Shown one piece after another: positions 6,001 to 10,411 of a stretch of 10,411 bases of DNA. The position numbers were made by a program. The stretch is from a virus (lineage: Duplodnaviria > Heunggongvirae > Uroviricota > Caudoviricetes): IMG/VR virus record IMGVR_UViG_2690316210_000013. One strand, given 5' to 3'. Position 1 is the first letter of the stretch; each line of letters starts with the position of its first letter.

Positions 6001-9000
6001 TCTGCTGCAGCTTCACAGCCCACATGCTGTTCAGGTTATTATTTGTATCAACCTGAACCTTCTGTATCTGCTGAATTGCCGCACTCTGGTCTTCCAGTTT
6101 CTTATTGACGGTCTGCGTGATTTCATTGCTGACATCCGTAATGGACGTCCTGATTTCAGCCAGGTCAGGCGCAAGCTGACCGTTATCAATCTGCGTCCAC
6201 AGCTCCTGAGCCAGATGGGTTTTCCCTATCTCGCCTTTGAAAAAATCCAGATAACCGGATGCATCATCACTCGGCTGACCAACAGCCTCCACGAATGCCG
6301 ATTTGCCAACGGTGTTCACACTGCGGATATAAAAGTAATAATCATGGCCCGGTTTGATATTGATACTGGCGGCTATCCAGTACAGCGCCGTGCCAAGATA
6401 GCGTGCTGTGGTTTCAACCTGCCTGATATCCGCAATCCGCTTTTCCGAGAACCAGAACTCAAACTGTACCGTCGGATCATAAACCGCAAGATGCGGCGTG
6501 GCGGTTATCTGAAAATAGCCCGGCGTCAGCTCAATCCGCGACAGCGCTGCCGGTGCGGCAATCCGGAACGATACCGACGCCGGATCGCCCTGCTGCCCCC
6601 ACGCATTTACTGCCCGGACTGTCAGCCTGTAGTTCCCCAGCGCCAGTTGTGTGAAGCGGTAAGTGGTTTCCGTCGTCCGGGCCGTGCTGACCAGCCGCTC
6701 ACTGCCGTCATCCGCTGTTACGGTCAGACGGAGCAGGAAGCTCACGCCCTTCACCACCTTCGGCGTGTCCCAGCGCGCCAGCACCTGATATTCCCCGCTG
6801 TCTGCGGTGACTTCGGCAGTCAGGTGCTGCACCGCTGGCGGCGTGACACCATTCACCGTGCCGCTCTGGTCGCCGTCAAAGTGCGCCCCGTTATCCACGA
6901 TGGCTTCTTTTTCCGGCACATGCTGCACGGCGGTGATGGCATACGTGCCGTCGTCGTTCTCACGGATACTCACGCAGCGGAACAATCGCTGGTGCAGCGT
7001 CGGCAGCTTCAGCCCCCACACGCTGTATTCAGCAACACCGTCAGGAACACGGCTCACTTTTACCTTCACGCCGTCGGTGACGGACTGGACCTCCACGCTG
7101 ACCGGATTACCCTGACCGTCAACCAGGCTTATCAGCGTGGTACCGGAGGATGGCAGCGTGATTTCACGGTCGAGCGTCAGCGTCCGGGTCTGGCTGTTCA
7201 CCGCCAGCACGCGCCCGCCGGTGCGGATACCGGCATAGTCATCATCGCAGATTTCAATGACATCGCCCGGTACATGACGAAGCCCTTCAGCACCCACGCT
7301 GAAATCCACGGTCTGCGTCTCCAGCAGTTCCGTTTTAATCAGCCACAGCCCGGCGCGGTGTGCCTGCCCCCGGCTGGTACAGCCAAAGGCATCCATCTTC
7401 GTGACGTTACGACCGTAACGGACAATGGCCTGCGTATCCTCCACAAGCTCTGTCGCCGTCTCCCAGCCGTTATCCGGGTCAATCCAGTTCACCTCAACGG
7501 CATTATGGCGGTCTTTCAGGGCGCTGAAACTGTAGCGGAACGGCGCGCCATCATCCGGCATCACCACATTACTGCGGTTATAGGCCCACACCTTATCCGA
7601 CTGTCGGTCCTGCACGAACGTCAGCGTCTGCCCGTTCCATACCGGCATACAGCGCATCGCCGAGCAGAAATCACTGAGCACATCCCACGCCTTGCGCTGT
7701 GTGGTCAGCCAGGCATTACAGGTGATGCGCGGCTCCGTGCTGCCAAAGCCGTCCGGCACCGACTGGTCACAGTACTGGCCGATGACATACAGCGCCCATT
7801 TATCCACATCTGCCGCACCAAGACGTTTCCCCATGCCATAGCGCGGATGGGTCAGCATATCCCACAGACACCAGGCCATGTTGTTGCTGTATGCTGGCTT
7901 AAACGTTCCGTCCCAGATACCGCTGTATTGCCGCGTCTGCGGGTTATAGTTCGACGGCACCTGCAGAATGCGCCCGCGAAGATGATAATTACGGCTCACC
8001 TGCTGGCTGCCGAACTGTTCCGAGTCCACCTGCACGCCGACCAGTGCCGTGTTCGGGTAGCACTGTTTCACATCGATGATTTCGGTGTATGACGACCAGA
8101 GCGTTTTGTTCTGCAGCTGGTCTGTGGTGCTGTCCGGCGTCATTCTGCGCATCCGGATATTAAACGGGCGCGGCGGCAGGTTATCCACCACCACCGAGGC
8201 CAGATACTGCGAGGTGGTTTTGCCCTTAATGGTGATGTCTTTTTCCGTCACCCAGCCACCGTTACGCTGTATCTGAACCAGCAGGCGAACTTCAGACGGA
8301 TTCCTGTCTCCCTTTGAGGTGGTTTCCACCAGTGCCTGTACACCGAAGGTAAAACGCAGTCGGTCAATGTTTGCCGACGTGATGGTCCGGGTGATCGGCG
8401 TGTCATATTTCACTTCCGTACCCAGCACCGTCTCGGAGCCGGAGGATTCAAATCCCTCCGGCGGTGACTGCTCCTGCTCACCTGCCCGGAACACCACCGT
8501 GACACCGGATATATTGGTATTCCCCTCACTGTCCAGCACCGGCGTACNNNNNNNNNNNNNNNNNNNNNNNNNNNNNNNNNNNNNNNNNNNNNNGCGTGGA
8601 CTTCAGGTTGTCCCTCGCTTCGCGCGGGGTATGCCCCTTACTGCTTCCTTTACCCATTCCTCACACTCCATAAACAACAAAGCCGCCCAAAAGGCGGCTC
8701 ATGAGTTACGACAGGATTAACTATTATTTACATGCATTAACACTATCAGCAAAAATTTTTGGCGTTAATGCTGGTACACGTTCATAAAGAGTAAAACTAC
8801 TGCCATTTCCTGCTTTTTTGATATCAAGCACAACATCATATCCCCCCATAGCCTGTGGAACTAAAAGGCTTACCCCATTCTCAATAGGAAGGGATGTTAT
8901 AGGTGTTCCATTACCAGCCCATTGTCTGGATATGCAGCCTGACAATTCATCAATATTTTTTAATGAATTACCTTCCATTACAGGTTTTCCGGATTTTACG

Positions 9001-10411
9001 TAATCCAAAGATTTACATCCTGTTAAGGCAATAATCGTGCAGAATAAAATCGTTTTGTTCATATAGCTAACCAATAGAATAATTATCAGTGTTCGATATA
9101 AATATTAAATTAGTTAGAACATGAGTAAAATAATATTACCGCCCAATTACCACAACCTGACCACCATCCCCTTCATCTGCCGTGCTGATCTCCTGAGATG
9201 CCACACGTGACCCCACGCGCATTTCACCGTACAGAACAGGCAGGACATTGCCCTGGGCAACCATGTTATCCAGTGAGGAGAAATAGGTGTTCTGTTTGCC
9301 GTTATCCGTTGTCTGTGTACGGGGAGTTCTGGCTTTCGGTGCCAGCATCTGCGCCACACCACCAAGCGTCATCGCCGCACCCATTGAAAAGAGAATGTCA
9401 CTGAAAGCGATACTGATCCCCGGCATCCAGATTGCCGTAGCAATCAACGCCGCACCCAGCACCGCCTGAAACACACCGCCACTTTTTGCTCCCGCAAGAC
9501 GCGGCACGATGTGGATCACGGCACCATTTGCCAGCGGCTCATTAAGACGGGATGATAATTCGGTTTCTCCTGCATCCCGCCCGGCAATCCGTACCTGATA
9601 CCAGCCATCGCTCAGTTTCTGACGAAACGCCGGGAGCTGTGTGGCCAGTGCCCGGATGGCTTCAGCCCCCGTTTTCACACGAAGGTCGATGCGGCGGCCA
9701 AATCGTTGCAAATCCCCGTAAAGGCAGATGCGTGCCATTCCCGGTGACGCCAGAGGGAGTGTGTGCGTCGCTGCCATTTGTCGGTATACCTCTCTCGTTT
9801 ACTCAGTTGTTCAGGAATATGGTGCAGCAGCTCACCGTCGCCGCAGTAAATGGCGGCGTGATTCGGCACCGATGAACCAAAACAGCACAGCAGCACATCG
9901 CCCGGCTGCGCCTCTGTCAGTGCGACACGGTAAAAACCAGTAGCCTCCATATTGTCAAGATAGAGATTCTGACCGTGACGCCACCAGTCATCCCCGCGAT
10001 GAAAATCCGGCATCTCAATCCCCGCCAGATGGTAAGCATCCCGGAACAGTGTGTAACAGTCCGTCACCCCGTACTCAAAGCGCCGCCCGGTGAGATGCGG
10101 CACACAGCGGAACTTGTGAATCGCCCCCCGGCAGACCAGCCACCACGGCAAATCACTCTGCACCTGCAGCCGCCGGTCGGCCTCACTCAGCCAGGGCAGA
10201 CCACCGGGGTGGCTGTGGACCAGCGCCACAATCTCACCCTGCATCTCTGCCTGCAGCCAGTCCTCCGGAGCCATCCGGAAATACGCCTCCGGCTCACCGG
10301 AGATATTCACGCAGGGGAAATATCTTTCCCCCTCCGGCGTTCTTACCACGAAGCCGCACGACTCCGCTGGAGCACATCGCCGGGCGTGCGCCAGAATCGC
10401 TGATTCTGTCT

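What the first reader, a model, noticed from the sequence alone, without database searches (positions are those of the whole stretch)
8660..9135. Lipoprotein moron inserted between tail genes I and J, beside a divergent receptor-binding protein
In lambda the I stop and J start are about 60 bp apart (from my memory of the lambda map). Here they are 478 bp apart. The extra DNA is AT-rich relative to the GC-rich tail genes and contains a complete unit: a candidate promoter, a lipoprotein ORF (MNKTILFCTIIALTG|C, +2 Lys, mature ~96 aa with two more Cys) and a strong intrinsic terminator just before the J ribosome-binding site. That architecture is typical of a lysogen-expressed moron. The gene sits next to J, whose C-terminal receptor-binding domain differs from lambda. 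Small phage lipoproteins such as T5 Llp and phi80/HK022 Cor block the phage's own receptor, so a receptor-masking superinfection-exclusion role is a reasonable hypothesis. I cannot assign the protein to any known family by eye, so it may be undescribed.
Basis: partly seen in the sequence, partly recalled or inferred. Interest (0 to 1): 0.75.

Follow-up and report, generated by a model that had tools for sequence, protein, structure and literature searches.

The report
Roving lipoprotein gene in phage tail operon
An E. coli prophage carries an extra, horizontally acquired gene for a small outer-membrane lipoprotein between tail genes I and J; it belongs to a catalogued phage family of unknown function that recurs in tail-tip gene clusters and probably helps exclude other phages, but not by matching the neighbouring receptor-binding domain.

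Summary
The ORF is real. It lies on the minus strand at 9062..8724 and encodes 112 aa with the lipobox LTG|C. It sits in about 430 bp of AT-rich extra DNA (GC 0.36 against 0.56 in the flanks) between I and J, where lambda has 60 bp.

Two details in the finding fail:
- No sigma-70 promoter stands out above chance.
- The "terminator" before J is homologous to a hairpin already present in lambda's own I-J spacer, so it is not part of the insert.

The protein hits no Pfam, NCBIfam, PADLOC or PDB-sequence entry. It matches phrog_914 ("unknown function") full-length at E=7e-33. The AF2 model (pLDDT 84) is a small alpha+beta domain. It is unlike Llp, Cor or Rtp45, and the nearest solved fold is the Francisella lipoprotein Flpp3.

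Family members occupy three slots in lambda/HK97-like tail operons: K|I, I|J and T|H. They usually have low GC and a downstream terminator, which is moron behaviour.

In E. coli the insert is in 337 of 5426 complete genomes and is under purifying selection.

The best reading is an envelope-level phage-exclusion lipoprotein that does not depend on the resident J receptor-binding domain. Function is inferred, not shown.

The parts
9136..9777 (-). Tail gene I (tail-tip plug protein). Its stop codon at 9138..9136 is the left edge of the spacer.
   Evidence: ORF list. Pfam Lambda_tail_I E=4e-24. Aligns with the lambda I 3' end up to the stop.
8703..9133 (-). Extra, AT-rich DNA absent from lambda and from most lambda-like I/J junctions in E. 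coli. This is the moron insert proper.
   Evidence: The alignment to the lambda I-J spacer breaks right after the I stop and resumes at the hairpin. GC is 0.34-0.40. Present in 337 of 5426 genomes.
9063..9135 (-). 73-nt AT-rich leader upstream of the ORF. It has only sub-consensus promoter-like hexamers and a weak Shine-Dalgarno.
   Evidence: No minus-strand hit in the consensus scan. The best relaxed matches are 8-9 of 12. Homologues have clear AGGAG/GGAGG sites, but this copy does not.
8724..9062 (-). Lipoprotein gene: 112 codons plus stop, a member of phrog_914.
   Evidence: Translation. phrog_914 E=7.3e-33 over residues 1-112. Homologues. AF2 pLDDT 83.6. 5 synonymous and 0 non-synonymous changes against strain E2.
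9015..9062 (-). Signal peptide (aa 1-15) with lipobox L-T-G-C. Cys16 (9017..9015) is the lipidated residue and Lys follows at +2.
   Evidence: Sequence. The lipobox Cys is invariant in 40 of 40 family members, and none of the sequences shown has Asp at +2.
8670..8700 (-). GC-rich hairpin plus T-rich tail just before the J ribosome-binding site. It is shared with lambda's own I-J spacer.
   Evidence: Terminator scan. Homology to lambda.
5198..8657 (-). Tail-tip and central-fibre gene J. A 46-N run at 8548-8593 interrupts the 5' end in this window.
   Evidence: ORF 5198..8539. N runs. 92-100% identity to UTI89 J per 50-aa block up to about residue 1000.
5201..5650 (-). J C-terminal receptor-binding region (last 150 aa). 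It is a common allele type and is not linked to the lipoprotein.
   Evidence: 33% identity to lambda and 41% to the UTI89 type. Present in 2092 of 5426 genomes and in 74 phage records at >=90%.

Best explanation
SHOWN:
- The I-J spacer carries about 430 bp of horizontally acquired DNA that encodes a conserved lipoprotein under purifying selection. The protein belongs to phage family phrog_914.
- It has a Sec/Lsp signal peptide and a lipobox Cys, followed by a tether of about 12 residues.
- The tether leads to a compact alpha+beta domain of about 85 residues with two further invariant Cys.
- Family members turn up in three intergenic slots of lambda/HK97-like tail operons (K|I, I|J, T|H), always co-oriented with the tail genes.

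INFERRED:
- Cys43 and Cys111 probably form a periplasmic disulfide that ties helix 1 to the C-terminal helix.
- Because the gene lies inside the late operon, it is made at least during lytic growth. Whether it is also made in lysogens from its own promoter is open.

MOST LIKELY FUNCTION (inferred):
- It is an envelope-level phage-exclusion or anti-readsorption factor that works from the periplasmic face of the outer membrane.
- It acts at a step that does not depend on which J receptor-binding domain the resident phage carries.
- One option is that it acts on an outer-membrane component other than J's allele-specific receptor.
- The other option is that it interferes with outer-membrane and periplasmic penetration by the ejected tail-tip proteins gpI and gpH. 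The genes for these two proteins flank every slot the family uses.
For: Gene and protein:
- ORF, lipobox and composition.
- Full-length phrog_914 match. All 10 distant representatives tested also hit phrog_914.
- 125 representatives at E<=1e-3, nearly all 105-125 aa.
- Three invariant Cys in 40 sequences.
- Confident model, pLDDT 83.6 and pTM 0.75, with order beta-alpha-beta4-alpha.
- Purifying selection.

Moron behaviour:
- Slots K|I in Klebsiella, Kluyvera and Serratia prophages and in phages Fraca, OS31 and ST846-OXA48phi9.1.
- Slot T|H in Enterobacter. This is the slot of the HK97 gp15 exclusion moron (PMC3594210).
- Slot I|J in E. coli.
- IMG/VR tally: 59 I|J, 6 T|H, 4 K|I.
- Low GC, with a strong downstream hairpin-plus-T-run in 7 of 8 copies examined.

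Independence from the receptor-binding domain:
-.
- Phage Fraca carries this lipoprotein and also an annotated cor gene after J.

Precedents for small periplasmic lipoproteins that exclude siphophages:
- Llp/FhuA and Rtp45/LptDE (PMC12685063).
- mEpimmI Lpp proteins (PMC11893012).

Plausibility of a penetration target:
- gpI is the tail-tip plug. Its hydrophobic helices are proposed to insert into the outer membrane.
- gpH* forms the periplasmic channel (PMC11101478, PMC12617516).
Against: - No experiment exists on any family member.
- No promoter stands out above chance. This copy also has a weak ribosome-binding site, so expression in lysogens is unproven.
- The hairpin before J is ancestral to the spacer.
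- There is no PADLOC hit.
- At least one distant member (P0143) lies in a non-phage island.
- Adjacency to I and H may only reflect permissive intergenic sites.
Confidence: 0.42

Rival explanations
1. The lipoprotein is a Cor/Llp/Rtp45-type blocker that binds the periplasmic face of the specific outer-membrane receptor used by the neighbouring J protein and makes it unusable.
For: - It is predicted to be an outer-membrane inner-leaflet lipoprotein with a short tether.
- It is encoded in the host-recognition end of the tail operon.
- There are experimental precedents (PMC12685063; PMC11893012).
- The authors of the phage OS31 paper made the same guess for a homologue.
Against: - The identical protein accompanies at least four J C-terminal types that are 41-65% identical or unrelated.
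- Most carriers of the window-type J lack it.
- The gene sits 3.4 kb from the receptor-binding end of J. Cor, Llp and the mEpimmI Lpp genes lie next to the receptor-binding gene or domain.
- Fraca has both this gene and cor.
- Similarity to Cor or the mEp021 Lpp stops after the signal peptide and tether.
- There is no fold similarity to solved exclusion lipoproteins.
- Caveat: the different J types could still share one receptor.
Confidence: 0.18
2. It is a lysogenic-conversion fitness or virulence factor for the host, in the manner of the lambda lipoprotein Bor/Iss (serum resistance) or Lom, and has no role in phage-phage competition.
For: - Moron features.
- It lies one gene away from Lom.
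- It is common in ExPEC/APEC ST95-type strains (UTI89, S88, APEC O1, IHE3034, NU14) and in O104:H4 2011C-3493.
- The nearest solved fold, Flpp3, is a Francisella virulence-associated lipoprotein.
Against: - There is no Pfam Bor/Iss hit or any other family hit.
- The family follows tail modules across environmental and commensal Enterobacterales and Pseudomonas phages. Examples are a Serratia phage from a gold mine, an Antarctic Pseudomonas phage and Kluyvera. It does not follow pathogens.
- Its repeated placement beside I or H is unexplained by this model.
- The pathogen association in E. coli is largely by lineage.
Confidence: 0.2
3. It is a late-expressed phage function needed in the producing cell, for example one that prepares the envelope for release, and not an accessory gene.
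For: - It is co-oriented with and embedded in the late tail operon, sometimes with only 32-44 nt gaps to K and I.
- No independent promoter is evident.
Against: - It is dispensable. Lambda, HK97 and most related prophages and phages lack it.
- It has a foreign base composition.
- An exported lipoprotein cannot take part in cytoplasmic tail assembly.
- It is not in the lysis cassette, and it is a folded domain, unlike o-spanins.
Confidence: 0.1
4. It is a decaying passenger ORF with no current function.
For: - This copy has a weak ribosome-binding site.
- Some copies are frameshifted or truncated: P0002 and P0018 and L096-L098.
- One copy is separated from I by an IS66 insertion (L019).
Against: - 5 synonymous and 0 non-synonymous differences.
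- The ORF is intact and near-identical in hundreds of genomes and more than 1000 contigs.
- The fold and Cys pattern are conserved at 20-30% identity.
Confidence: 0.04

Closest known systems
phrog_914 (PHROGs v4, 'unknown function'), including Serratia phage vB_SspS_OS31 p54, Escherichia phage Fraca VUF53278 and Klebsiella phage ST846-OXA48phi9.1 QBP07791
   Same: Full-length profile match at E=7e-33. Same size, lipobox and three-Cys pattern. All lie in lambda/HK97-like tail-tip gene clusters.
   Different: The E. coli copy sits in the I|J slot rather than K|I and is only 19-31% identical to the members found in sequenced phages. No member has a tested function.
HK97 gp15 moron (inner-membrane superinfection-exclusion protein; Cumby et al. 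2012, reviewed in PMC3594210)
   Same: It is extra DNA of foreign composition inside the tail operon. Close homologues of the window protein in Enterobacter occupy the same T|H slot. gp15 excludes phages without blocking their receptors, in a way that depends on the incoming tail. That fits the independence from the receptor-binding domain seen here.
   Different: gp15 is a YebO-like inner-membrane protein, not a lipoprotein. There is no sequence relationship. Prophage expression is proven for gp15 and not for this gene.
Cor (phi80/N15/HK022/T1), T5 Llp and Rtp Rtp45: small outer-membrane lipoproteins that disable FhuA or LptDE from the periplasmic side
   Same: Phage-encoded lipoproteins predicted or shown to sit on the inner leaflet of the outer membrane, encoded in the host-recognition part of the genome.
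   Different: - They are about 6-7 kDa when mature, against 10.5 kDa here.
- The profile match to Cor stops after the signal peptide and tether.
- No fold match appears in the PDB searches.
- Their genes adjoin the receptor-binding gene and track receptor specificity, which this one does not.
mEpimmI phage Lpp lipoproteins (mEp021 gp81, mEp010 gp116; PMC11893012)
   Same: Lipoproteins inside the structural gene cluster of temperate coliphages. They were shown by plasmid expression to exclude cognate phages.
   Different: mEp021 gp81 is 72 aa and is encoded after J on the opposite strand. hhalign to the family profile matches only the first 20 residues. Their types track receptor usage (OmpA, LamB).
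Flpp3 / DUF3568 (Francisella tularensis lipoprotein; PDB 6PNY, 2MU4, 9NLT)
   Different: 6-9% sequence identity and no Pfam DUF3568 hit. The similarity is at the level of a common alpha+beta sandwich shared with KA1, DUF302 and BamC-N.

Membership tests
Moron (Juhala/Hendrix definition) | Extra DNA between two genes that are adjacent in related phages | tested here: met
   478 nt here against 60 nt in lambda. The insert is at 349 places, against 7659 places that match lambda-like I/J ends in E. coli genomes.
Moron (Juhala/Hendrix definition) | Base composition different from the neighbouring genes | tested here: met
   GC 0.36 against 0.56. Six of the seven homologous copies examined show the same pattern, 0.38-0.43 against 0.52-0.55.
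Moron (Juhala/Hendrix definition) | Own promoter | tested here: inconclusive
   No minus-strand consensus hit. One site was found in the region, on the + strand, where 2.1 +/- 1.4 are expected by chance. Relaxed matches reach 8-9 of 12 only.
Moron (Juhala/Hendrix definition) | Own terminator | tested here: inconclusive
   A hairpin is present but is homologous to lambda's native I-J hairpin. Copies in other slots do carry their own strong terminators.
Moron (Juhala/Hendrix definition) | Expressed from the repressed prophage | not testable with these tools
   No transcript data are available. No paper mentions the locus tags or accessions searched.
Bacterial lipoprotein (Lgt/LspA/Lnt substrate) sorted to the outer membrane | Signal peptide with a basic n-region, a hydrophobic core and lipobox [LVI][ASTVI][GAS]C | tested here: met
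   M-N-K-TILFCTIIA-LTG-C. The Cys is invariant in 40 of 40 sequences.
Bacterial lipoprotein (Lgt/LspA/Lnt substrate) sorted to the outer membrane | No Asp at +2 (Lol avoidance rule) | tested here: met
   +2 is Lys here. In the aligned family it is K, A, S, T, G, E, V, L or M, and never D. Localisation itself was not measured.
phrog_914 | Full-length significant match to the family profile | tested here: met
   E=7.3e-33, residues 1-112 on profile positions 1-118 of 118.
Cor superinfection-exclusion family (phrog_1119) | Profile match over the mature domain, protein of about 77 aa | tested here: not met
   The window protein has no phrog_1119 hit at E<=1. Relatives hit only the first 19-46 residues. 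hhalign to Fraca Cor aligns 29 columns of signal peptide and tether.
T5 Llp / Rtp45-type exclusion lipoproteins | Sequence or fold similarity to the solved proteins | tested here: not met
T5 Llp / Cor-type receptor masking (working like, not membership) | Exclusion gene co-varies with the receptor-binding domain | tested here: not met
   The same protein lies beside at least four J C-terminal types.
Lambda Bor / Iss lipoprotein (PF06291) | Pfam match | tested here: not met
   No Pfam family at E<=1.
Known anti-phage defence proteins (PADLOC-DB 2.0) | Match to any model | tested here: not met
   No families at E<=1.

The most novel reading that the evidence does not exclude
phrog_914 lipoproteins may be a receptor-independent exclusion system. 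Anchored under the outer membrane, they would intercept the ejected tail-tip plug gpI, or the gpH channel, of incoming lambda/HK97-like siphophages. This would explain three observations:
- The gene always flanks I or H.
- It stays constant while J receptor-binding domains are swapped.
- It co-exists with Cor in phage Fraca.

Pseudomonas phage phiAH14a carries a second 'phrog_914 lipoprotein + I-like protein' pair next to its CI-type repressor, in addition to the K-lipoprotein-I arrangement in its tail operon. That hints at a two-part module expressed in lysogeny.
Probability: 0.15. Interest if true: 0.75.

Novelty: new variant of a known kind. Interest (0 to 1): 0.45.

Why it matters
All well-understood exclusion lipoproteins of siphophages (Llp, Cor, Rtp45) are tiny receptor-specific blockers. 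This family is larger and folded, is widespread in E. coli, Klebsiella, Enterobacter and Serratia prophages, and is uncoupled from the receptor-binding domain.

If it does exclude phages, it would point to a different and possibly broader block at the outer-membrane or periplasm penetration step. That step has only recently been visualised for lambda.

The family is common in clinically important lineages (ST95 ExPEC/APEC, O104:H4, Klebsiella). It could therefore affect phage-therapy host range and the prediction of prophage-mediated resistance. It is also cheap to test.

Tried and rejected
Family and structure searches:
- Pfam, NCBIfam, PADLOC and the PDB sequence search gave nothing useful. 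The NCBIfam VirB7 hit (E=0.08, 12.7 bits against a 60-bit cut-off) covers only the signal peptide.
- tblastn against 50,697 phage records found no close homologue. Only distant members appeared.
- The species-representative genome scan gave a single locus.
- The afdb50 fold library was unavailable.
- BFVD returned only the phiAH14a family member plus unnamed "lipoproteins".

- The P0006 look-up found nothing on record.

Other checks:
- Rfam gave only a sub-threshold GcvB match (19.6 bits against 42), treated as chance in AT-rich DNA.
- Literature searches for accessions and locus tags found only the OS31 paper.
- The lysogeny-transcriptomics paper (PMC7067206) has nothing on this gene.

Ideas considered and dropped:
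- Homology to the experimentally tested mEpimmI Lpp proteins. It is limited to the signal peptide.
- An o-spanin. The location is wrong and the protein is a folded domain.
- An inhibitor of the K peptidase. K has not been located in virions (PMC12617516), and from my own knowledge it is thought to act in the cytoplasm during tail assembly.
- Antisense ORFs 8818..9003 and 8903..9034 on the + strand. They are short, and their span is already accounted for by the conserved lipoprotein gene on the minus strand.

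
Full report
OBSERVATION

All relevant genes are on the minus strand. Tail gene I is 9777..9136. J begins at 8657, with MGKGSSKGHTPREA... as in lambda. The 478-nt spacer 8658..9135 holds an ORF at 9062..8724.

The ORF encodes 112 aa. 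The sequence MNKTILFCTIIALTG|C is a textbook signal peptide plus lipobox, followed by Lys at +2 and a 97-aa mature chain with Cys43 and Cys111. In lambda the same two genes are exactly 60 nt apart.

GC falls to 0.34-0.40 over 8700-9200, against 0.54-0.62 on either side. The window carries a 46-N run (8548-8593) inside the J 5' end and two single Ns.

TWO CORRECTIONS TO THE ANATOMY

First, the promoter. The consensus scan reports no sigma-70-like site on the minus strand. It finds one site in the region, on the + strand, where shuffles give 2.1 +/- 1.4. My relaxed scan finds only 8/12 matches, or 9/12 with a 15-nt spacer. This copy also lacks the clear Shine-Dalgarno seen in its homologues.

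Second, the terminator. The hairpin at 8700..8680 is genuine. When the spacer is aligned with lambda, however, homology is lost directly after the I stop and resumes at the hairpin. Lambda's own 60-nt spacer reads aaACCGCCtgcGGGCGGTtttgtcatttatggagcgtgaggaATG. The hairpin is therefore part of the ancestral I-J junction, and the extra DNA is about 9133..8703. The "complete promoter-ORF-terminator unit" does not hold as stated for this copy.

IS THE ORF A GENE?

Yes. The evidence:
- The exact protein is indexed in 6742 blocks of the assembly collection and counted on at least 1000 contigs, the tool's counting limit.
- The 478-nt spacer is in 337 of 5426 complete E. coli genomes. These include UTI89, S88, APEC O1, IHE3034, NU14, the type strain ATCC 11775 and O104:H4 2011C-3493. 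It is annotated only as "hypothetical protein" WP_001332187.1.
- E. coli variants differ by 1-3 residues.
- The most divergent DNA alleles show 5 synonymous and 0 non-synonymous changes.
- Full-length homologues at 50-62% identity occur in Klebsiella, Kluyvera, Enterobacter and Jejubacter.
- A profile search of 1.84 billion representatives finds 125 proteins at E<=1e-3, nearly all lipoproteins of 105-125 aa.
- Across 40 diverse members the lipobox Cys and two further Cys are invariant, and P27, K35, W48 and G63 are nearly so.

WHAT FAMILY?

Pfam, NCBIfam, PADLOC and PDB sequences give nothing. PHROGs gives a full-length match to phrog_914, "unknown function", at E=7e-33. All ten distant representatives I tested also fall in phrog_914.

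Weak Cor (phrog_1119) hits in two relatives cover only the signal peptide. hhalign of the family profile against Fraca Cor aligns only the first 29 columns, and against the experimentally tested mEp021 Lpp only the first 20.

The AF2 model is confident, with pLDDT 83.6 and pTM 0.75. It shows a short tether and then a beta-alpha-beta4-alpha two-layer domain.

Structural neighbours:
- Foldseek against the PDB gives Flpp3 at TM 0.52 and nothing at E<=1e-3.
- BFVD returns the phiAH14a family member.
- Llp and Rtp45 do not appear in the listed matches.

The fold is a generic protein-binding alpha+beta sandwich and does not name a function.

GENOMIC BEHAVIOUR

This is the most informative result. 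Members occupy three slots of lambda/HK97-like tail operons, always co-oriented with the tail genes:
- K|I in Klebsiella and Kluyvera prophages, in Serratia prophages, and in phages Fraca, vB_SspS_OS31 and ST846-OXA48phi9.1.
- T|H in Enterobacter. This is the slot of the classic HK97 gp15 moron (PMC3594210).
- I|J in E. coli.

In 69 IMG/VR loci the tally is 59 I|J, 6 T|H and 4 K|I.

Close homologues (about 50% identity) in different slots, low GC (0.38-0.43 against 0.52-0.55), and a strong hairpin-plus-T-run after the gene in 7 of 8 copies together fit a mobile moron. One distant member lies in a non-phage island.

No sequenced phage in INPHARED carries a close homologue.

THE COVARIATION TEST

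It does not.
- The window and UTI89 share an identical lipoprotein. Their DNA is 99.7% identical over 1.8 kb spanning I, the insert and the J start.
- Their J proteins diverge abruptly after about residue 1000.
- Sampling more genomes, the same protein (0-2 substitutions) lies beside three C-terminal types that are 41-65% identical to each other.
- In IMG/VR the counts are 27 UTI89-type, 5 window-type, 5 B1.H1.18-type and 3 other. The identical sequence and the L58I variant are each found with all three types.
- Two loci have a 1084-aa J with an unrelated C-terminus.
- The window-type C-terminus is in 2092 of 5426 genomes and in 74 phage records at >=90% identity. Nearly all of these lack the lipoprotein.
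- The gene is also 3.4 kb away from the receptor-binding end of J, whereas cor in Fraca and the mEp021 lipoprotein gene lie after J.
- Fraca carries both cor and a phrog_914 gene.

MECHANISM

Shown:
- An exported, lipobox-bearing, conserved small protein encoded by accessory DNA in the late tail operon.

Inferred from established rules:
- Lipidation at Cys16 and Lol sorting to the outer-membrane inner leaflet, because no Asp is at +2 anywhere in the alignment.
- A periplasmic disulfide between Cys43 and Cys111.
- A short tether that holds the domain close to the membrane.
- Synthesis at least during late transcription.

Function is inferred only by analogy and context. Small periplasmic lipoproteins of siphophages exclude superinfection. 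Llp acts on FhuA and Rtp45 on LptDE, both from the periplasmic side (PMC12685063). mEpimmI Lpp proteins exclude cognate phages (PMC11893012). HK97 gp15, a tail-operon moron, blocks DNA entry without touching receptors.

Because the protein is indifferent to the J receptor-binding domain, I favour an exclusion step that is not specific to that domain. One concrete option follows from recent lambda structures:
- gpI is the tail-tip plug. Its hydrophobic helices are proposed to enter the outer membrane.
- gpH* forms the periplasmic channel (PMC11101478, PMC12617516).
- I and H are exactly the genes that flank the family's slots.

This is a hypothesis, not a result. I put about 0.42 on RBD-independent envelope-level exclusion (about 0.15 of it on the penetration variant) and 0.18 on allele-specific receptor masking. 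I put 0.2 on a host-fitness role like Bor, 0.1 on a lytic-cycle role and 0.04 on no function.

PRIOR KNOWLEDGE AND NOVELTY

The family is catalogued (phrog_914) but unannotated. Bacterial annotations say "hypothetical protein", "Lipoprotein" or "Phage protein". The only discussion I found is one sentence on OS31 p54, suggesting it "might be an analog of Cor proteins" (PMC7556043).

The element is therefore not categorically new. It is a tail-operon moron encoding an envelope lipoprotein, which is a known kind. It is a structurally distinct and untested family whose independence from the receptor-binding domain sets it apart from Cor, Llp and Rtp45.

SIDE OBSERVATION

Pseudomonas phage phiAH14a has K-p82-lipoprotein(p83)-I-J in its tail operon. 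p83 is a different lipoprotein family; hhalign matches only the signal peptide and tether.

The phage also has a phrog_914 gene plus terminator plus an I-like gene next to its CI-type repressor. That I-like gene is 79% identical to the tail I gene. The phrog_914 gene is mis-annotated as two ORFs, and its real start is at L013:6963.

Two points follow. The K|I junction hosts different lipoprotein families. A lipoprotein+I pair can also sit in a lysogeny-type location. This was not followed further.

Noticed in passing
window 8670-8700 (-); lambda NC_001416 15445-15504 (L027:2446-2505): Lambda's own 60-nt I-J spacer contains a GC-rich hairpin plus T-tract homologous to the one in the window. A terminator-like structure directly before J is thus a conserved feature of lambda-like tail operons, with or without the insert. 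Its role (attenuation, mRNA stability or a recombination hot spot) is not explained.
   Followed up: partly
L013:6963-7309 and 7367-7948; L040:22701-25310 (Pseudomonas phage phiAH14a, KU708004): Two lipoprotein+I pairs occur in one phage. In the tail operon, K-p82-lipoprotein p83 (140 aa, a different family)-I. Next to the CI-like repressor, a phrog_914 lipoprotein (mis-annotated as p34+p33) plus terminator plus an I-like gene 79% identical to the tail I gene.
   Followed up: partly
L011:7001-7336 and 12579-12812 (Escherichia phage Fraca): Fraca encodes both a phrog_914 lipoprotein (slot K-x-lipo-I) and an annotated Cor exclusion protein downstream of J. The two lipoproteins are therefore probably not redundant.
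   Followed up: no
L062 and L067 (IMG/VR), J starting at 3118 and 5406: A fourth J architecture lies next to the same lipoprotein: 1084 aa ending ...NVIRVRMGRLF, with no similarity to the lambda-like C-terminal receptor-binding domain. A separate receptor-binding protein may be used.
   Followed up: partly
L019:7377-9893 (E. coli UGBS01000001): An IS66-family element (three ORFs) is inserted between I and the lipoprotein gene. This separates the gene from any read-through from the late operon.
   Followed up: no
P0002, P0018; L096-L098: A minority of E. coli copies are frameshifted or otherwise lack the intact 112-aa ORF, so some decay occurs.
   Followed up: no
window 2571, 3638, 8548-8593: Two single Ns and a 46-N run mask part of the sequence. 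The long run removes J codons for about residues 22-37 and shifts the apparent frame, so J reads as two pieces in this window.
   Followed up: yes
window 1657-4552 (-) against L001:16815-18804: The side tail-fibre region downstream of Lom matches UTI89 in several overlapping, repeated blocks at 92-99% identity. This suggests internal repeats or rearrangement in the fibre gene.
   Followed up: no
window 8672-8897 (-): Sub-threshold Rfam match to GcvB (19.6 bits against a gathering score of 42, E=0.078) overlapping the 3' half of the lipoprotein ORF and the hairpin. Judged to be chance.
   Followed up: yes
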